In this document: positions 12,356 to 40,430 of the stretch, one piece after another
Position numbering within the stretch: position 1 is the stretch's first letter
Layout: each line of letters starts with the position of its first letter
From: a virus
Taxonomy: Duplodnaviria > Heunggongvirae > Uroviricota > Caudoviricetes
Direction: 5' to 3' (one strand)
IMG/VR virus record: IMGVR_UViG_2850808358_000009
DNA length: 46,389 bases
Notes under the pieces: model-generated
Database searches by the model: none
Told to the model about the DNA's origin: nothing
The model's input: the letters and a program-made list of their open reading frames with translations, nothing else
Translations under genes and position numbers: made by a program

Positions 12356-12655
12356 TCAGCCCCCCAGCGTCAGACTGACACCCGCAAGAGCCAGAATCTC
12401 GCTACGGATCCCTGAAAAAAAACGGGACGCCCGTTTCCCGGCATCTTCCATTCGACGGGCCGTTTTATCAGCATCTTTTCCGGTTTTTTCCAGTGATTCA
12501 CTGGTTTTCTTCTGTCCCTGACTGAATGTGTCAGCGACACCTTCCATCACCGTCGTGAGCCGGTTAAGGGCAGCATGTACTGCCTGTTCCCCGGCAGTAA
12601 AGTCCCTGTCATCAATCCCGAGGGACAGAACAAGCTCATCAAGTACCTGCGCCAT
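12356..12655 (-). CDS. Tape measure protein N-terminal fragment
   Basis: 99 aa ending right after a G6 tract; typical TMP N-terminus; ATG overlaps the stop of the GT-extension frame. Confidence 0.55.
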   Translation of the reverse strand: MAQVLDELVLSLGIDDRDFTAGEQAVHAALNRLTTVMEGVADTFSQGQKKTSESLEKTGKDADKTARRMEDAGKRASRFFSGIRSEILALAGVSLTLGG

Positions 12656-16074: not shown

Positions 16075-16604
16075 TTTTTGCCCCCGTCTACAGAATAATC
16101 AACGCTGTCCATCATATGTCCGGTTTCAATAAGCGGGTTGTTAAAACCCTTTTGCCGGGCAGTGGATGCAGCGTTGGGCGGACTTTCCCAGTCGCGAACA
16201 GACATCTGCAACTGCCCTTTGATATGTTCTCCCATACACACCAGAGCGGTCGCAGTATCAAAATCATTCGCCCGTAATAAGGTCGCCATTTTTTCGCCCC
16301 ATTCGGGACTTTTATGTTCGATCATCTTACGGAAGAACGGACGGGGGGGAATGGTGACCGTGTGCTCAGGAATAACCACATCCTGAACAAAATTCCCTTT
16401 ACCGGCTTTGACAAAGCGGTGCCCGGTTTCTCCCGTTTTTTCGTTATAGCGAAAGTGGAGCGTCTGCTCACGGGCGGGTATGACCGCTCTTCCACCAAAC
16501 TCCTGAACTGCGGCAATATAAGCCACTGACGTACCGTCAGGGTAAGTTGCTCCCTCAAGAAAACCCACTTTGAGTTTTTTTACCCAATGAAAGGTTCGCG
16601 GCAA
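16071..16604 (-). CDS. Head-tail region structural protein, apparently missing its N-terminus through a frameshift
   Basis: 177 aa with TTG start; the natural-looking N-terminus ([27 protein letters not shown]...) lies in another frame at about 16555..16657 and ends right after an A-tract. Confidence 0.45.
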   Translation of the reverse strand: MPRTFHWVKKLKVGFLEGATYPDGTSVAYIAAVQEFGGRAVIPAREQTLHFRYNEKTGETGHRFVKAGKGNFVQDVVIPEHTVTIPPRPFFRKMIEHKSPEWGEKMATLLRANDFDTATALVCMGEHIKGQLQMSVRDWESPPNAASTARQKGFNNPLIETGHMMDSVDYSVDGGKK

Positions 16605-19851: not shown

Positions 19852-20393
19852 AACGCCGTCATACGGCTCACCGTCGGGGTGGTTCCCGGCGTCATATCTG
19901 CCACATAGGCATATGACGATGAGATTTCCCGTTGTTCATCCGTTTCTATCCCCGCGATGGCGGAGTTGTCCCAGATGGACATGCCATTAACCAGATAGGT
20001 ACCGTCAAACTCGCTGTTGGCATGAGTCGTCCCCACCCGGTACTCGCGCGCGGGCGCGCCCGGATAATCGGGTTTGTGTCGGCACAGGACGGGAATATTG
20101 TTGAAGGTTGAAACTGCCTTGCGCAGTTCATCGGGGTCACGGTAAAGCTGATAAAGTTTTTTGGGGTCGAGTCCCAGCGCTTCCGCCCCCGGTATTTCAT
20201 ACCCGAAATAACCGCAGACGTTCGCCTTGCTGAGATTACTGCGCTCAATCTGGAGGCGACCGACTTTATCGAACTGCCTTACCGATGCCCGGTCAAACGC
20301 CAGCATTTCGGTAATAATCATTTTTTCTCCAGTCCGGGAATAACGGCCTCCCAGCCACACCGGCAGTTGATTTCTTCGCCCGGCAGTACCCAC
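19800..20393 (-). CDS. Hypothetical head-assembly protein
   Basis: 197 aa ORF between the Mu F-like gene and the scaffold gene. Confidence 0.35.
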
Positions 20394-30269: not shown

Positions 30270-30509
30270 TTACACCTTTTGCTGCTCTGAATTTTCGCCG
30301 TTTAATAGCCAGTCAGGATCGCATTTCAGAACTTTTGCCAATTCAAGGATGAAACCGGTACGGGTGGCGCGTCCGGACTCAAGGTATTGAACAGACTGCT
30401 GGCGCATGCCAACACTTTCAGCCAATGAAGTTTGGGTTATACCTAAGGCTTTGCGGCGCTCCTTTATACGTGAAGCAAGGGTAGAACTGGTCATTGAGTA
30501 AGCCCTCAT
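30270..30509 (-). CDS. Cro-like HTH (XRE family) regulator
   Basis: HTH motif LGITQTSLAESVGMRQQSVQYLESG; divergent from cI; start moved to an internal ATG (30509, or 30494 which has a GAGGG SD). Confidence 0.7.
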   Translation of the reverse strand: MRAYSMTSSTLASRIKERRKALGITQTSLAESVGMRQQSVQYLESGRATRTGFILELAKVLKCDPDWLLNGENSEQQKV

Positions 30510-30510
30510 T

Positions 30511-30576
30511 ATTACAGGTTTACTTGTAATTACCTCACAGGCAACCTTGTTTGTCAAATACAGAAGTATCTGTAAT
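30511..30576. promoter_or_regulatory. Immunity operator region with two 20-bp near-palindromic operators and overlapping divergent promoters
   Basis: ATTACAGG-TTTA-CTTGTAAT (about 30511..30530) and AATACAGA-AGTA-TCTGTAAT (about 30557..30576); -35-like TTGTCA / TTGACA on opposite strands around 30551..30558; AAGGAG SD before the cI ATG. Confidence 0.55.
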
Positions 30577-30601
30577 CATCAATGACAGAAAAGGAGTCAA
30601 C

Positions 30602-31230
30602 ATGAATCTTGCCAACCGAGCTAAAAAACGCAGAACAGAACTAAACTTAACTCAGGTCGAAGTTGCGAAACGAGCGGGCATTAGCCAGCAGTCGATTGAA
30701 GCTATAGAGAATGGGAAAACACTTAAACCACGCAATCTTCTTGCTTTAGCGTCAGCTCTTGAATGCGATCCTAAATGGCTACTTCTTGGGGCGATGTTGT
30801 TACAGATTTCAACTACGGAGCCCGAAGGGTGCCTGTTCTAAGCTACGTACAAGCCGGGGCTTTCACAAGCGCTGAGCTACTTCGTGAAGAAGGCGATTTC
30901 GAATACATTCTCACCACGGCTGAGCTATCAGAAAGTTCATTTGCGCTACGTATACGTGGGGATTCAATGGAACCTGAATTTAAAGAGGGGGACATCGTTA
31001 TAATTGACACTGACGTATACCCTACTCCTGGTGAATTCGTTGCGGCATGTAACGGTAGCCACGAAGCAACGTTCAAAAAATACCGCCCGGTAGGGATTGG
31101 CGCTAAAGGTGAGGAAGACTTTGAACTTGTTCCATTGAATAGTGATTACCCTATTTGTCGCTCCTGGGAAAAACCAATTAAGATCATAGGGACAATGGTA
31201 GAACATCGCATATTCCGCAGAAAAAGATAA
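30602..31230 (+). pseudogene. CI-like repressor (HTH_XRE plus S24 LexA-type peptidase domain) interrupted by a frameshift between the domains
   Basis: ORF track has the HTH part (30551..30841) and the S24 part (30775..31230) in different frames overlapping by about 66 nt; the S24 part has the GDSMEP motif. Confidence 0.7.
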
Positions 31231-31252
31231 TCGCATCCTGACTACTAAACAA

Positions 31253-31276
31253 AGAGGGCTTAGGCCCTCTTTTTTA
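31253..31276 (+). terminator. Intrinsic terminator after the repressor gene
   Basis: Perfect 7-bp stem agagggc/gccctct with a 4-nt loop followed by T6. Confidence 0.65.
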
Positions 31277-31331
31277 TTACCCGTAAAAACAAGTAATTAG
31301 GTTAATAATGCATTTTATTACCAAAATACCT

Positions 31332-31361
31332 GTTGACGCATTTACAGGTTTGCTTGTATTT
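31332..31361 (+). promoter_or_regulatory. Third operator-like site overlapping a promoter-like TTGACG ... TATTTT (candidate OL/PL)
   Basis: TTTACAGGTTTGCTTGTATT matches the OR operator consensus at 17 of 20 positions; -35-like TTGACG sits just upstream. Confidence 0.4.
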
Positions 31362-31606
31362 TTAATCACAATAAGTAATCGCTCTTTAACAAACTGAACC
31401 GCGTGACAGGTAAGCCGCAGTACTCCTGGCAAAATGAAATGGCACCCGATGGGATCGAGGTAAGCGCCGAGTCCGTATGCGTACGGTAAGCGTAGAGGAC
31501 AACACCGCGACGAGCTGATAAGTCACGCAAGTTGAAACGCCCCGACGATGGGGCGCTTAGTTCCTTTAACTCTGGGCGGCCGGAAGGGTACCCATGCTTA
31601 AAGAAA

Positions 31607-35501: not shown

Positions 35502-35643
35502 TATTGAGAATTCAATGGTCGGGCGTGCGGCTAATACAACACCCTTCCGAAGGGAAATACGCCCGCCGACTAGTAGCGGTTTTGAGCGCCCGACCACCCT
35601 CTCAAAAAGGGTAAATTCAAAATATCTACTAGGGCATAAAACC

Positions 35644-36417
35644 ATGAGTACCCAACTCGTATTCAAATCCCACATTCTCGAAACGATCGAACATAACGGC
35701 AAATCTTGGTTCACCGCTGCCACTCTGGCGACCGCGCTGGAATACTCACGAACGGACTCAGTCGCTCGTATTTATGACCGTAATCGGGATGAGTTTTCAG
35801 TTGAAATGACAACGACCGTCAAATTGACGGTCGTTAGGAAAACCGGCTCCGTCCAAATGAATAACCGCATTTTCTCTCTACGCGGTGCTCACCTGGTAGC
35901 GATGTTCGCAACAACGCCAGTAGCAAAAGAATTTCGCCGTTGGGTGCTTGATCTTATAGAGAAAGAAACCGCTATTCCGCAGTCCTCCACGGTACTGGCG
36001 CCGCACAGGGAGTGTCTGCCGAAAATGGTTTACCACCACAGTAGCAAATACAACCCGTACAGAGCCTACGCATGGAACGGAGAGAAGAACGTTTACGTCG
36101 GGTGCTATCCAACCGTGGATGAGGCTGTCGCTGCGCAGAAGGACTTTTACCGGAACGGCAGCACAAAGCGTATTCAGAAAGTGCAGACAGCAATCAATGA
36201 CGCAGAGAAGGAAATGTTCATCAACAATCTCCGCGCCATCTGTCATAACTTCCGGCGCATCAATGAAATCTGGCGCTCGCAGTTAATGCCTGCCCTCGAA
36301 AAAATGGATTCGAAACTGGTTTACCAGTTGCATGATCGTTTCAGCGACAGCATGTGTGCTCTGCCGACCATAGAAGACCGCATCGGCAGATATATTCCAC
36401 CCACTTTACCTCGTTAA
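35644..36417 (+). CDS. Bro-N domain protein (antirepressor-like), paralog 1
   Basis: 258 aa; N-terminal Bro-N-like region; C-terminal two-thirds nearly identical to 39654..40430; start moved to the internal ATG. Confidence 0.65.
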   Translation: MSTQLVFKSHILETIEHNGKSWFTAATLATALEYSRTDSVARIYDRNRDEFSVEMTTTVKLTVVRKTGSVQMNNRIFSLRGAHLVAMFATTPVAKEFRRWVLDLIEKETAIPQSSTVLAPHRECLPKMVYHHSSKYNPYRAYAWNGEKNVYVGCYPTVDEAVAAQKDFYRNGSTKRIQKVQTAINDAEKEMFINNLRAICHNFRRINEIWRSQLMPALEKMDSKLVYQLHDRFSDSMCALPTIEDRIGRYIPPTLPR

Positions 36418-36483: not shown

Positions 36484-39411
36484 TTGTCTGAAAACATTCT
36501 ATGGGGCGACCTGGAAACCTATTGCGAAATCCCTATTACGAACGGTACCCATGCGTATGCCGAAGGCGTTGAAGTGATGCTGTTCGCATGGGCTATCAAC
36601 GACGGGCCCGTAAACGTGTGGGATATCACTGCCGGTGGTGGTATTCCACACGGCTTATACGAAGCAATCGCAGCCCCTGAGACCCTGCTTTATTTTCATA
36701 ACTCTCACTTCGACCGCACCGTCCTGCGTTATGCAATGCCGCGACTGGCACCGCCAGTCGAACGTTGGCGCGACACAATGGTGCAGGCGCTGGCGCACGG
36801 CCTCCCGGGGTCTCTGGGGGAACTCTGCGAAATACTCGGCGTCCCGCAAGACAAAGCGAAGGACAAAGAAGGTAAAGCGCTGATCCAGCTGTTCTGTAAG
36901 CCACGCCCGAAAAACAGCAAACTGCGTCGGGCCACCAGTAAAACCCACCCAGAAGAATGGCGGCGCTTTGTTGCTTACGCCGGGCTGGATATCGAGGCAA
37001 TGCGCGAAGTCTATAAACGTCTGCCGAAGTGGAATTATCAGGGGACAGAACTGGCGCTCTGGCATCGTGATCAGCAGATCAACGACCGGGGCGTCTGCAT
37101 GGACATTCAACTCGCGCGCGCTGCGATCGAAGCGGTAGACCAGGAGCAAAAGCGCCTGGCAAAGCGTACACAGGAAATGACTGATGGCGAAGTGCAGGCA
37201 GCCACACAACGGGACGCGTTGATTAAGCACATCGTTGAATCCTACGGTGTGGAGCTACCAGACATGCAACGCAGTACCCTGGAACGTCGTATAGCCGACC
37301 CCGATTTACCATCTGCCGTGAAAGAACTGCTGGCTATCCGCCAGCAAGCCAGTACTACCAGCACCAGTAAATACAAGGCACTGATGAAAGGCGTAAGCCA
37401 CGACGGGCGCTTACGCGGTACGCTACAGTTCTGCGGGGCGTCACGTACCGGGCGCTGGGCCGGACGGCTATTCCAGCCCCAGAATCTTCCCCGCCCTTCA
37501 CTAAAACAGGAACAAATAGACGAAGGCATCGAAGCACTGAAAGCCGGATGTGCAGACCTGCTGTTTGACAATATCATGGAACTAACCAGTTCAGCGTTAC
37601 GTGGCTGCATTATCGCGCCAACAGGTAAAAAACTGGTGGTAAGTGACTTGTCGAACATTGAAGGCCGTATGCTGGCATGGCTGGCGGGAGAAGAATGGAA
37701 ACTGAATGCATTCAGAGAGTACGACGCCGGAACGGGTCCGGACTTATATAAACTGGCGTATGCAAAAGCTTACGGAATTGAAGTTGAGCGCGTCACCAAA
37801 GACCAGCGCCAGATAGGTAAAGTGCTGGAATTGGCTTGCATAGCTCCGGATACTTTAGTGCTCACCGATAAAGGCTATAAGCCGCTTGTTAGTATTTCGG
37901 GCGCGGATTTGTTATGGGACGGAGAAGAATGGGTAAAACACGAAGGACTGATTTACAGGGGGTACAAAGCCTTAATATCACTGGACGGAGCAAAAATGAC
38001 CCCGGATCACCAGGTGCTAACCCCTACTGGATGGAAGCTGGCAAACCTTATCGCTTTAAACAAAAATACGCTTCACCAAAGCCTGGAACTTGCTTCGGAG
38101 AACTTACCGTTATCAAAGAACTGGAAAAAGTACCCGGAAAAGACCGAAGGATACTTGTCAAATGCAAATGTGGTGCAATGCCTCACACCGCAACAATCAG
38201 CAATCTCCTTAAAGGGAAAAGTACCCGATGTAACATTTGCGCAAAGAAAAAGCATAACGAGTATCGTAAAAAATTCTTATGCTATGCGGATGCTATTGCA
38301 GATGACGAAACCCGTCGCAGGCTACTTAACCGATTGTCTGCCGCAATCAGCCGTTGCCATAAACCCACCAACAGGTTGTTTCACAACTACGGCGGTCGGG
38401 GGATCTACGTTTGTCAGCTATGGCAGGAAGATAAAAGAGCTTTTTTGCTACACGTCAGGGAAATCAAAGGGTTTAATGACCCAAAGTTGGAAATGGATCG
38501 CATCGACAATAACAAAGGCTACGAACCGGGTAATATCCAGTTCGTCTCCAAAGCAGACAATAACCGCAACAGAAGAAAAATCGCAGACCTGCAAAAGCGT
38601 ATCGACGAGCTGGAGCGATGTTTACGACATTGCACATGCGGGGCCTCGAAACAGATTCACGATTAAAACCGACTCAGGACATTTAATCGTTCACAACTGC
38701 GGGTACGGTGGTGGTGTGTCGGCCTTCATCACTTTTGCACTGGTTTACAGTCTCGATCTCGACGAGCTGGCGAACGCCGCACTGCCAAACATTCCCCGCG
38801 ATGTTATCCGCGAGGCGAAAAGCTGGTACTACGAATCGGTTAAACGTAAGTCAACCTACGGCCTTTCTGAACGGGTATTTATCGCCTGCGACTCACTTAA
38901 ACGTCTCTGGCGCAGGGCGCACCCGGCGACCTGCGATTTCTGGTACGAACTGGAGCGCACCGTCCGCACTGCAATCGCCACACCGCAAAAAACATTGTAT
39001 TGCGGTTATCTTAAAATCCGCCGCGATGGCGCGTGGCTGCGCATACAGCTACCATCCGGACGCGCGGTATGCTACCCGTCTCCGGTTATCGAAAAAGGGA
39101 ATATCACCTACATGGGTGTTAACTCTTATTCGCGTAAATGGCAACGACTCAAAACCTACGGCGGAAAGCTGGTAGAGAACGTCACCCAGGCGGCCGCCCG
39201 CGACGTTCTGGCCGGAAACATGCCGCTTATCGAAGATGCCGGTTACAGCATTGTGCTGACGGTACACGATGAAATTATAAGTGAGGCCCCTGACTCACCC
39301 GATTACTCAGCAGAACATGTCAGCCAGTTACTGGCAACCGTTCCTGACTGGGCCACGAGCATTCCACTAAACGCCGGAGGATTCGAATCTTACAGATACC
39401 GGAAAGATTGA
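36484..39411 (+). CDS. Family A DNA polymerase (3'-5' exonuclease plus polymerase domains) containing an intein
   Basis: 975 aa single ORF, TTG start after a GGAGG SD; DLET exonuclease motif near the N-terminus; after removing 37837..38697 the junction reads [21 protein letters not shown], which fits PolA motif B. Confidence 0.75.
37837..38697 (+). other. Intein within polymerase motif B (Cys-initiated, ends His-Asn, next extein residue Cys)
   Basis: Starts [17 protein letters not shown] with a TPDHQVLT block-B-like motif; ends [27 protein letters not shown] followed by C; 287 codons in the polymerase frame. Confidence 0.7.
37914..38666 (+). CDS. HNH-type homing endonuclease in the -1 frame relative to the polymerase, nested inside the intein
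   Basis: Zinc-binding FGELTVIKE...CKCG...CNICAKK region and an HNH-like motif [27 protein letters not shown]. The protein-like part spans roughly 38073..38613; true start unknown. Confidence 0.6.
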
Positions 39412-39531
39412 CATCCGCGATGACCAATAGGTATATTCCGCTTCATGGTGCTGAACACACCTATACAAGCGGAAACCGCGCCCGTCAGTCATGCGGATTT
39501 TTTATGTCCATTTTCAGATATGGTCGGGTAG
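39408..39531 (+). promoter_or_regulatory. Second copy of the promoter / leaderless micro-ORF / terminator element, upstream of Bro-N paralog 2
   Basis: Same TTGACA-N18-TATATT and hairpin plus T6. The polymerase stop codon TGA lies inside the -35 hexamer. Micro-ORF about 39445..39531 (28 codons) differs from copy 1 by a frame-preserving 3-nt indel. Confidence 0.5.
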
Positions 39532-39653
39532 CGCGTATACCGAAAAACAGCCGAAAGGCTAAGGATACGGGCCGTTCTTGTATGCGGTGTTCAAGTACCT
39601 GACCGCCCTGCTGAACACAGGGATTCTGAACAAAAATACAAGGACATAAAACT

Positions 39654-40430
39654 ATGAGTACTCAACCCGTATTCAAATCCCACGTTCTCGAAACGATCGA
39701 ACACAACGGTAAGCAGTGGTTCACCGCCGCGACTTTGGCTACTGCACTGGAATATTCGCGCGGCGATAAAATCACCCAGATATACAACCGCAACTCGGAT
39801 GAGTTTACTCCTTGCATGTCAATCAACCTCAAAATGAGGTTCAACGGGATCAACAATAGCTTACGAGAAAAAGATGTGCGTATTTTCTCCCTACGCGGTG
39901 CCCACCTGGTAGCGATGTTCGCAACAACGCCGGTAGCAAAAGAATTTCGCCGTTGGGTGCTTGATCTTATAGAGAAAGAAACCGCTATTCCGCAGTCCTC
40001 CACGGTACTGGCGCCGCACAGGGAGTGTCTGCCGAAGATGGTTTACCATCACCGGAGCAAATACAACCCGTACAGAGCCTACGCATGGAACGGAGAGAAA
40101 AGCGTTTACGTAGGGTGTTATCCATCCGTGGATGAGGCTGTCGCTGCCCAGGAACGCTTCTACCGGAATGGCAGCACGAAACGCATTCAGAAAGCACAGA
40201 CCGGAATCAGTGACGCAGAAAAGGAAATGTTCATCAACAATCTCCGCGCCGTCTGTCATAACTTCCGACGTATTAATGAAATCTGGCGAGCGCAGTTAAT
40301 GCCTGCTCTCGAAAAAATGGATTCGAAACTGGTCTACAAACTGCATGACCGCTTTAACGACAGCATGTGCATTCTGCCGACCATAGAAGACCGCATCGGC
40401 AGATATATTCCACCAGAGTTACCCCGTTAA
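39654..40430 (+). CDS. Bro-N domain protein (antirepressor-like), paralog 2
   Basis: 258 aa, highly similar to 35644..36417 outside a divergent segment after the Bro-N domain. Confidence 0.65.
   Translation: MSTQPVFKSHVLETIEHNGKQWFTAATLATALEYSRGDKITQIYNRNSDEFTPCMSINLKMRFNGINNSLREKDVRIFSLRGAHLVAMFATTPVAKEFRRWVLDLIEKETAIPQSSTVLAPHRECLPKMVYHHRSKYNPYRAYAWNGEKSVYVGCYPSVDEAVAAQERFYRNGSTKRIQKAQTGISDAEKEMFINNLRAVCHNFRRINEIWRAQLMPALEKMDSKLVYKLHDRFNDSMCILPTIEDRIGRYIPPELPR

What the first reader, a model, noticed from the sequence alone, without database searches (positions are those of the whole stretch)
30775..30841. CI-like repressor broken between its DNA-binding and autocleavage domains
The HTH part and the S24 LexA-type peptidase part are in frames offset by -1 and overlap around a G4 tract; one extra G would give a contiguous ...KWLLLGGDVVTDF... 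repressor. As it stands, the HTH-only product would lack the dimerisation and RecA-cleavage domain, and the S24 domain could be made separately from an internal ATG. That would alter SOS inducibility and immunity, or mark the prophage as cryptic.
Basis: partly seen in the sequence, partly recalled or inferred. Interest (0 to 1): 0.6.

Follow-up and report, generated by a model that had tools for sequence, protein, structure and literature searches.

The report
Repressor frameshift is an assembly error
The prophage's CI-type repressor gene looks split in this sequence only because one G is missing from a run of five, almost certainly an uncorrected long-read sequencing error, so the gene is ordinary and intact in the organism.

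Summary
A 79-aa HTH ORF (30602-30841) and an S24 peptidase ORF (30775-31230) overlap at a G4 tract (30788-30791), and one extra G gives ...KWLLLGGDVVTDF.... The biological reading is not supported. All six fetched E. coli relatives (86-99.9% identical) have G5 and one 209-aa gene. That intact protein is on at least 1000 contigs, while the 79-aa fragment is on exactly one, the source record CP026877.1. An independent assembly of the same clone (GCA_003572525.1) differs from the source over 20,777 bp by that one G and nothing else, and encodes the intact repressor. The window has five more single-base homopolymer changes that split conserved phage structural genes. Two of these are contradicted by a short-read assembly of the same lineage. 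Loci from the same accession batch differ by 0-2 SNPs but 9-18 single-base homopolymer indels, almost all in G/C runs, per 17-20 kb. A published study excluded these uncorrected PacBio Shigella genomes because of 'numerous indels in the homopolymers'. Repaired, the gene is a canonical lambda-CI-like, SOS-cleavable repressor. Verdict: artefact, low interest.

The parts
30602..31230 (+). CI/LexA-type prophage repressor gene. It is 629 nt here and 630 nt (209 aa) in all relatives. As written it is split into two overlapping ORFs.
   Evidence: The repaired protein aligns end to end with lambda CI (3bdn, E 1.8e-14), and its HTH resembles 434 Cro and the 434 repressor.
30602..30841 (+). N-terminal fragment ORF of 79 aa: the HTH_3 domain, then a 16-residue out-of-frame tail (AMLLQISTTEPEGCLF) after Gly63, then a stop.
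   Evidence: This exact protein is on only one contig in the ~15-billion-protein collection, CP026877.1.
30788..30791 (+). G4 tract. Relatives have G5 (Gly63-Gly64 codons GGG GGC). This is the missing base.
   Evidence: Alignment A1. The same-clone sister assembly has G5, and this is its only difference in 20,777 bp.
30775..31230 (+). C-terminal fragment ORF with the S24 peptidase domain. It is 151 aa from ATG 30775, and was called as 133 aa from GTG 30829 in the source record. It contains the VQAG|AF cleavage site, the GDSM catalytic Ser and the FKKY catalytic Lys.
   Evidence: The 133-aa product is on one contig only.
30270..30494 (-). Divergent Cro-like HTH gene (74 aa), first gene of the leftward operon (primase, Q antiterminator, lysis, structural genes).
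   Evidence: HTH_3, E 1.3e-13. Annotated as a 225-nt HTH gene in all relatives.
30512..30529 (.). Operator-like 18-bp palindrome TTACAGGTTTACTTGTAA in the divergent promoter region.
   Evidence: Function is inferred.
30558..30575 (.). Second operator-like palindrome ATACAGAAGTATCTGTAA. It overlaps the promoter-like site in front of the repressor gene (TTGTCA-17-AATCAT, 30551-30579).
   Evidence: Function is inferred.
31251..31272 (+). Terminator-like hairpin after the repressor gene.
   Evidence: (I13).
31342..31359 (.). Third operator-like palindrome TTACAGGTTTGCTTGTAT. It overlaps a rightward promoter-like site (TTGACG-18-TATTTT, 31333-31362).
   Evidence: (D1). Function is inferred.
7956..7959 (.). 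C4 run (C5 in relatives). One of five further homopolymer length changes. It lies in the sheath-initiator gene.
   Evidence: Logan SRR6049580 of the same lineage has the longer allele.
8058..8059 (.). C2 run (C3 in relatives), a second change in the sheath-initiator gene.
12360..12365 (.). C6 run (C7 in relatives). It splits the tape-measure/SLT gene into a 99-aa N-terminal product and a C-terminal remainder (called as 506 aa) instead of 673 aa.
16575..16581 (.). T7 run (T6 in relatives). It splits a 194-aa head/neck gene.
19876..19879 (.). G4 run (G5 in relatives). It splits the DUF2213 head gene into a 173-aa N-terminal product and a 259-aa C-terminal call instead of 449 aa.

Best explanation
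The split is a sequencing/assembly artefact. The deposited chromosome from which the window was cut is NCBI GCA_002950035.1, CP026877.1, probably Shigella boydii. It undercalls a G5 homopolymer as G4 in the linker codons Gly63-Gly64 of an otherwise normal repressor gene. In the organism the gene is most likely a single 209-aa lambda-CI/LexA-type repressor with these parts: (a) an N-terminal 434-like HTH domain that binds TTACAG-N6-CTGTAA-type operators at the divergent cro/cI promoters and at a rightward early promoter; (b) a linker; (c) a C-terminal S24 domain with a Ser-Lys dyad that dimerises and self-cleaves at Ala-Gly (VQAG|AF) when stimulated by RecA*, which induces the prophage. Shown here: the G4/G5 difference, its uniqueness to one assembly, its absence from an independent assembly of the same clone, the batch-wide homopolymer error signature, and conservation of the domains and motifs. 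Inferred: operator function, RecA-dependent cleavage, and that the assembly comes from uncorrected PacBio data.
For: (1) All six fetched E. coli relatives (86-99.9% nt identity) have G5 and a 630-nt 'LexA family protein' gene. All 26 E. coli hits are annotated the same way. (2) By exact look-up, the 79-aa and 133-aa fragments are each on one contig, CP026877.1, while the intact 209-aa protein is on at least 1000 contigs. (3) Contig QWSJ01000013.1 of GCA_003572525.1 shares with the source a 258-aa Bro-N protein found on only these two contigs. It is identical to the source over 21,395 bp. Over the 20,777 bp that span the repressor it differs by 0 substitutions and 1 gap, which is this G, and it encodes the intact 209-aa gene. 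(4) The window carries five more 1-nt homopolymer length changes relative to O121 and VL40, each splitting a conserved structural gene. In 17 further relatives the source is the odd one out at every covered site, apart from one long-read genome copy (CP011416 copy 2) at the C7 site. A Logan assembly of SRR6049580, 100% identical to the source elsewhere, has the longer, ORF-preserving alleles at two of these sites. (5) Homologous loci from the same accession batch (CP026805, 815, 823, 825, 832 and PSST01) differ by 0-2 SNPs but 9-18 single-base homopolymer indels, almost all in G/C runs, per 17-20 kb. For example, L052 vs L056 shows 0 SNPs and 18 indels. (6) PMC8795385 states that the Kim et al. 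[quoted passage not shown] It reports 29-288 cgMLST allele differences between PacBio and Illumina genomes of identical strains. CP026832 and CP026878, which bracket CP026877, are attributed to that study. (7) The repaired protein keeps the lambda-CI cleavage site, catalytic Ser and catalytic Lys.
Against: No reads could be inspected, so the error is inferred from comparisons and not seen directly. I could not show that GCA_003572525.1 or SRR6049580 come from the very same culture as CP026877.1; identity of clone is inferred from 0 SNPs over about 25 kb and a shared unique gene. CP026877 itself is not named in any paper I could read, so its membership of the Kim et al. batch rests on accession adjacency. 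G/C homopolymers are also genuine mutational hot spots. Shigella prophages do decay: the O121 and VL40 copies are riddled with IS elements. The tape-measure C6 allele also occurs in a few assemblies outside the batch, including one Logan contig.
Confidence: 0.93

Rival explanations
1. A real, very recent frameshift mutation (G5 to G4 slippage) in the sequenced culture. The repressor would then be genuinely split. The HTH-only product would give weak, non-inducible immunity or none, and the prophage would survive only because it is also defective.
For: Homopolymer slippage is a common real mutation. The window also shows frameshifts in structural genes, which would fit a dead prophage that tolerates repressor loss. 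Related copies in O121 and VL40 are clearly decaying through IS insertions.
Against: An independent assembly of the same clone has G5 with zero other differences in 20.8 kb. A same-lineage short-read assembly has intact alleles at two other 'broken' sites. Six homopolymer indels, with no IS insertion and no large deletion, are not how the related copies decay. The accession batch shows the same signature between loci that differ by 0-2 SNPs, and this problem is documented in the literature. The fragment proteins are on a single contig worldwide.
Confidence: 0.05
2. A phase-variable (contingency) G tract that switches the repressor between full-length and split forms.
For: The break lies exactly in a homopolymer, and the frame change is the minimal one.
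Against: The tract is only 5 nt and encodes Gly-Gly. It is G5 in every relative examined, including those at 86% identity, and the intact protein is on at least 1000 contigs against one for the fragment. No length polymorphism is seen outside one error-prone assembly.
Confidence: 0.01
3. A naturally two-gene arrangement or a programmed -1 frameshift that yields both an HTH-only and a full-length repressor.
For: The two ORFs overlap by 67 nt, and an ATG (30775) and a GTG (30829) could start the S24 part.
Against: No homolog has the two-ORF layout. All have one in-frame gene. There is no conserved slippery heptamer. The shift would require GGG to re-pair on UGG, and the tract differs from the relatives by a simple deletion.
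Confidence: 0.005

Closest known systems
Phage lambda CI repressor (PDB 3bdn) and the LexA/UmuD S24 autocleaving repressor family
   Same: The repaired 209-aa protein aligns with full-length lambda CI over residues 8-198 (E 1.8e-14). It has an N-terminal HTH, a linker, the VQAG|AF cleavage motif (lambda VQAG|MF), the catalytic Ser in GDSM (lambda GNSM) and the catalytic Lys in FKKY (lambda FKKL). A divergent cro-like gene and palindromic operator-like sites are present.
   Different: It is shorter than lambda CI (209 vs 236 aa). The HTH is closer to 434 Cro and the 434 repressor (E about 1e-14). A third operator-like site lies after the gene's terminator, at a rightward promoter, unlike the OL/OR layout. 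The phage backbone is a myovirus-type element integrated next to yfhL, with PolA, DUF2800 and DUF2815 replication genes. As written in the window, the gene is frameshifted.
Uncorrected PacBio homopolymer indel errors in the Kim et al. 2018 Shigella reference genomes
   Same: It is a single-base contraction of a G/C run, unique to one assembly, absent from an independent assembly of the same clone, and accompanied by similar changes elsewhere in the window and across the batch. The problem is described in PMC8795385.
   Different: Direct attribution of CP026877.1 to that study and platform is inferred from accession adjacency. It was not read from the record or the paper, which is not held.
Escherichia phages vB_EcoM-606R2, -611R5 and -689R2 (ON470579 and related records) and yfhL-integrated E. 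coli prophages
   Same: They share the gene order and 94-99% identity over the replication, lysis and packaging modules, with a divergent HTH/repressor pair in the same position.
   Different: Those phage records carry a different immunity allele (a 224-aa repressor with a 66-aa cro-like gene). BLAST shows no match across window 30282-31380. Their structural modules also differ.

Membership tests
Lambda CI / LexA-type S24 autocleaving repressor | N-terminal HTH DNA-binding domain | tested here: met
   HTH_3, E 1.1e-15. 434 Cro and 434 repressor match at E about 1e-14.
Lambda CI / LexA-type S24 autocleaving repressor | C-terminal S24 peptidase domain with a Ser-Lys dyad | tested here: met
   Peptidase_S24 over the full profile, E 1.1e-18. 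GDSM Ser and FKKY Lys align with lambda Ser149 and Lys192 (residue numbers from my own knowledge).
Lambda CI / LexA-type S24 autocleaving repressor | Ala-Gly self-cleavage site in the linker or at the start of the C-terminal domain | tested here: met
   PVLSYVQAGAF aligns with lambda PVFSHVQAGMF.
Lambda CI / LexA-type S24 autocleaving repressor | Both domains on one polypeptide | tested here: inconclusive
   Not met in the window as written. Met in the same-clone sister assembly and in all relatives. The failure is attributed to a base-calling error.
Lambda CI / LexA-type S24 autocleaving repressor | RecA*-stimulated autocleavage leading to prophage induction | not testable with these tools
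   Needs a mitomycin C or UV induction and cleavage assay.
Lambda CI / LexA-type S24 autocleaving repressor | Divergent cro-like gene with repeated palindromic operators between the two genes | tested here: met
   Cro-like HTH gene at 30270-30494. Three TTACAG-N6-CTGTAA-like sites cluster at 30512, 30558 and 31342, out of 5 in the window against 1.2 expected. Binding was not tested.
Long-read homopolymer assembly artefact | Single-base length change in a homopolymer that is unique to one assembly | tested here: met
   G4 vs G5. The fragment proteins are on one contig only. The exact G4 44-mer is absent from 185,579 species-representative genomes.
Long-read homopolymer assembly artefact | An independent assembly of the same strain or clone lacks the change | tested here: met
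   QWSJ01000013.1 vs CP026877.1: 20,777 bp, 0 mismatches, 1 gap, which is this G. That the two are the same clone is inferred.
Long-read homopolymer assembly artefact | The same kind of change recurs in the assembly and its batch far more often than substitutions | tested here: met
   Five more sites in the window. Batch loci show 0-2 SNPs against 9-18 single-base homopolymer indels, almost all in G/C runs. Supported by the literature.
Long-read homopolymer assembly artefact | Raw reads disagree with, or are ambiguous about, the consensus at the site | not testable with these tools
   No access to reads.
Programmed frameshift or natural split-gene arrangement | The frame change is conserved in homologs, with a slippery motif | tested here: not met
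   All homologs are in frame with G5.
Phase-variable homopolymer contingency locus | Tract length is polymorphic among strains or populations | tested here: not met
   G5 in all relatives. The intact protein is on at least 1000 contigs against one for the fragment.

The most novel reading that the evidence does not exclude
The G4 allele is real in the archived strain: a fresh slippage mutation has split a CI-type repressor into a free HTH domain and a free S24 domain in a prophage that is kept anyway. This would be a natural experiment on whether an HTH-only CI fragment can hold lysogeny without dimerisation or SOS cleavage.
Probability: 0.04. Interest if true: 0.3.

Novelty: not a real feature. 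Interest (0 to 1): 0.05.

Why it matters
It matters mainly as a caution. The record from which the window was cut carries uncorrected homopolymer errors at roughly one per 7 kb in this window. Apparent pseudogenes in it, including this 'broken' repressor and five 'broken' structural genes, should not be read as prophage decay, loss of SOS inducibility or crypticity. With the six bases restored, this yfhL-integrated, ipaH-adjacent prophage has no IS insertions and may be far more intact than its IS-riddled relatives in EIEC strains. That bears on whether it could still be induced and move the neighbouring ipaH effector gene.

Tried and rejected
These attempts led nowhere or were rejected:
- An exact 44-mer spanning the G4 allele, scanned against the species-representative genomes, gave 0 hits.
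- Paper searches for CP026877, GCA_002950035, SRR6049580 and QWSJ01 gave 0 hits. They are also absent from the held supplements.
- The Kim et al. 2018 announcement is not held, so platform and strain are inferred from citing papers.
- The ratio of window-specific SNPs to indels (about 24 SNPs to 6 indels in the 31.6-kb core) was suggestive but not decisive. My first automated indel tally also failed, because BLAST places gaps differently within homopolymer runs.
- Several look-ups meant to reach the sister assembly failed. DUF2815 was swamped by a common allele. The 300-aa gene look-up did not list the sister contig. The exact baseplate-J protein is only in the source, because of a private SNP at 7497. 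The 236-aa gene look-up did not list the Logan sample. The Bro-N and wedge-protein anchors worked.
- The repaired tape-measure protein with A276T was tested as a strain marker, but it is on 188 contigs and so is not specific.
- Programmed frameshifting, phase variation and a natural two-gene layout were considered and rejected, because every homolog is in frame with G5.
- I could not obtain same-lineage independent sequence for sites 12360, 16575 and 19876. For those three the evidence is only that relatives carry the other allele.

Full report
**Observation.**
- An ORF from ATG 30602 to the stop at 30839-30841 encodes 79 aa with an HTH_3 domain (E 1.1e-15).
- An ORF in the frame offset by one base, from ATG 30775 to 31230, encodes 151 aa that cover the whole Peptidase_S24 profile (E 1.1e-18).
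- The two overlap at 30775-30841, around a GGGG tract at 30788-30791.
- Adding one G gives a 209-aa protein with both domains that reads ...KWLLLGGDVVTDF....

**What relatives show.**
- A megablast of 30450-31350 against complete E. coli genomes found 26 chromosomes. All are annotated there with one 'LexA family protein'.
- I fetched six of them, spanning 86-99.9% identity. Each has a 630-nt, 209-aa gene.
- In the DNA alignment, the only indel in the gene is G4 in the window against G5 in all six.
- There is no sign of a natural two-gene layout or a conserved frameshift. Further relatives also have a single gene.
- The one exception is an older draft assembly (L039, GCA_000211975.2), which is broken at other places in the gene.

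**Context.**
- The window is a roughly 44-kb myovirus-type prophage integrated next to yfhL. The integrase is at 44517-45920 on the minus strand.
- An ipaH-type effector gene (1-1812; LRR_TTSS plus NEL) sits at the tail-fibre end.
- The closest complete genomes are E. coli O121 201805972 and VL40, at 99.7-100% identity. Their copies are interrupted by several IS elements yet keep an intact repressor.
- Related induced phages (vB_EcoM-606R2 and others) share the replication, lysis and packaging modules but carry another immunity allele.

**The repressor lesion is not alone.** Against O121 and VL40 the window has six single-base homopolymer length changes:

| Window position | Window run | Run in relatives | Gene affected |
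|---|---|---|---|
| 7956 | C4 | C5 | sheath initiator |
| 8058 | C2 | C3 | sheath initiator |
| 12360 | C6 | C7 | tape measure/SLT |
| 16575 | T7 | T6 | 194-aa head/neck gene |
| 19876 | G4 | G5 | DUF2213 head gene |
| 30788 | G4 | G5 | CI-type repressor |

Each one splits a conserved gene:
- The sheath initiator (118 aa in relatives) is called as an 81-aa remnant.
- The tape measure/SLT (673 aa) is split into a 99-aa N-terminal product and a remainder called as 506 aa.
- The 194-aa head/neck gene is cut after 33 aa.
- DUF2213 (449 aa) is split into 173-aa and 259-aa calls.

In 17 further relatives the source is the odd one out at every covered site. The only exception is one copy in another long-read genome, at the C7 site.

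**Source and uniqueness.**
- Exact-sequence look-up places the 79-aa and 133-aa repressor fragments on one contig only in a collection of about 15 billion proteins. That contig is NCBI GCA_002950035.1, CP026877.1 (5.13 Mb), which is evidently the window's source.
- The intact 209-aa protein is on at least 1000 contigs.
- The window's helicase allele is named Shigella boydii by its sources.
- The exact G4 44-mer is absent from the species-representative genome set.

**The decisive comparison.**
- A 258-aa Bro-N protein of the window occurs on only two contigs: the source, and QWSJ01000013.1 of GCA_003572525.1.
- These two records are 100.000% identical over 21,395 bp, including 8 kb of host genes.
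- Over the 20,777 bp that include the repressor, they differ by 0 substitutions and one gap. That gap is the G of this tract.
- The sister assembly therefore encodes the intact 209-aa repressor.
- Contigs of Logan sample SRR6049580 are 100% identical to the source over 5.8 and 3.1 kb. A third contig from that sample differs over 4,143 bp only by the longer, ORF-preserving alleles at 7956 and 8058, plus one SNP at 7497.
- Thus three of the six contractions are contradicted by independent assemblies of the same lineage.

**Batch signature.**
- The 99-aa tape-measure fragment is found almost only in assemblies with neighbouring accessions (CP026805, 815, 823, 825, 832 and 877), plus a few others.
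- Homologous loci from those assemblies differ pairwise by 0-2 SNPs (up to 19 in more distant pairs) but by 6-18 indel events per 15-20 kb. Nearly all are single bases in G/C runs of 3-8. For example, L052 vs L056 shows 0 SNPs and 18 indels.
- This is not how real divergence looks. It is what uncorrected long-read consensus errors look like.
- The literature agrees. Yassine et al. (PMC8795385) excluded the closed PacBio Shigella genomes of Kim et al. [quoted passage not shown] They tabulate 29-288 allele differences between PacBio and Illumina genomes of identical strains.
- CP026832 and CP026878, which bracket CP026877, are attributed to that study. That CP026877 belongs to it is my inference.

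**What the gene is once read correctly.**
- The repaired protein aligns with full-length lambda CI (3bdn, E 1.8e-14). Its HTH aligns with 434 Cro and the 434 repressor.
- The cleavage motif PVLSYVQAG|AF, the catalytic Ser (GDSM) and the catalytic Lys (FKKY) are all conserved.
- A divergent 74-aa Cro-like HTH gene (30270-30494) heads the leftward operon of primase, Q, lysis and structural genes.
- Three TTACAG-N6-CTGTAA-like palindromes cluster in the immunity region, out of five in the window against 1.2 expected. Two lie between the divergent genes (30512, 30558). One (31342) overlaps a rightward promoter-like site just after the repressor's terminator.
- The inferred mechanism is the standard CI switch. 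Dimers bind these operators and shut the lytic promoters, and RecA* triggers self-cleavage at Ala-Gly and so induction. These functional steps are inferred from family knowledge and were not tested.

**Rivals.**
- A real, very recent slippage mutation in the sequenced culture cannot be excluded without reads. It would have to coincide with five other private homopolymer changes, with no other difference from a sister assembly, and with a batch known for this artefact. I give it about 5%.
- Phase variation and programmed frameshifting are contradicted by the invariance of G5 in all homologs.

**Verdict.** The gene identification and the proposed repair are right. The biological interpretation (a broken repressor, altered SOS inducibility, a cryptic prophage) is not supported. 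The feature is an assembly artefact in an otherwise ordinary, well-known kind of repressor, so interest is low. The useful by-product is a warning about pseudogene calls in this record. With six bases restored, this ipaH-adjacent prophage looks intact.

Noticed in passing
window 7956-7959, 8058-8059, 12360-12365, 16575-16581, 19876-19879: Five further single-base homopolymer length changes relative to all relatives. Each splits a conserved phage structural gene (sheath initiator twice, tape measure/SLT, a 194-aa head/neck gene, DUF2213). They are the same kind of artefact as the repressor G tract.
   Followed up: yes
window 35517-35603 and 39522-39612 (+): Two copies of the Rfam family sRNA-Xcc1 (RF02221; 70 and 66 bits, above the gathering score of 53). 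Each lies just upstream of a Bro-N domain gene (35644-36417 and 39654-40430). The two Bro-N modules are about 83% identical duplicates.
   Followed up: no
window 31333-31362 and 31363-31600: A third operator-like palindrome overlaps a rightward sigma-70-like promoter immediately after the repressor's terminator. It is followed by about 240 nt with no convincing ORF and a GC-rich hairpin near 31540-31560. This could be a repressor-controlled early rightward promoter with a leader or small RNA. There is no Rfam match at the gathering threshold.
   Followed up: partly
window 1-1812 (+): An ipaH-type type III effector (LRR_TTSS plus NEL E3 ligase, 603 aa) sits directly beside the tail-fibre end of the prophage. 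The same is seen in EIEC strain VL40 and in CP011416/CP065615 relatives, which suggests prophage-linked carriage of ipaH.
   Followed up: partly
window 7497 (baseplate J gene, 6497-7738, minus strand): A substitution private to the source record. The same-lineage Logan contig (L069) and the relatives have the other base, and the exact 413-aa protein exists only in CP026877.1. It may be a consensus substitution error.
   Followed up: partly
window 36484-39411 (+): The family-A DNA polymerase is 975 aa (944 aa as annotated in O121), against 687 aa in many otherwise collinear relatives. Pfam matches only residues 275-449. The extra roughly 290 aa could be an insertion, an intein or an extra domain, and were not examined.
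   Followed up: no
L050 19573-20420 (CP026877.1, about 3 kb left of the window): The host yfhH (MurR/RpiR-type, HTH_6 plus SIS) gene is called as two pieces (183 and 81 aa) in the source record. This is either a real Shigella pseudogene or another homopolymer error. It was not checked.
   Followed up: no
L039 7723-8684 (GCA_000211975.2, AFGE01000046.1): An older draft assembly of a related prophage also shows the cro-like gene and this repressor broken (45-aa and 87-aa calls) at other positions. This is probably another platform's homopolymer errors and not biology.
   Followed up: no
L008 (E. coli O121 201805972) and L009 (VL40), whole prophage: The nearest complete-genome copies of this prophage carry 5-7 IS insertions (IS1, IS2, IS600, IS421, IS66, ISEc11) in tail, sheath, polymerase, Q and integrase regions. 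They nevertheless retain an intact repressor and cro-like gene. This is consistent with selection to keep immunity in defective prophages.
   Followed up: partly
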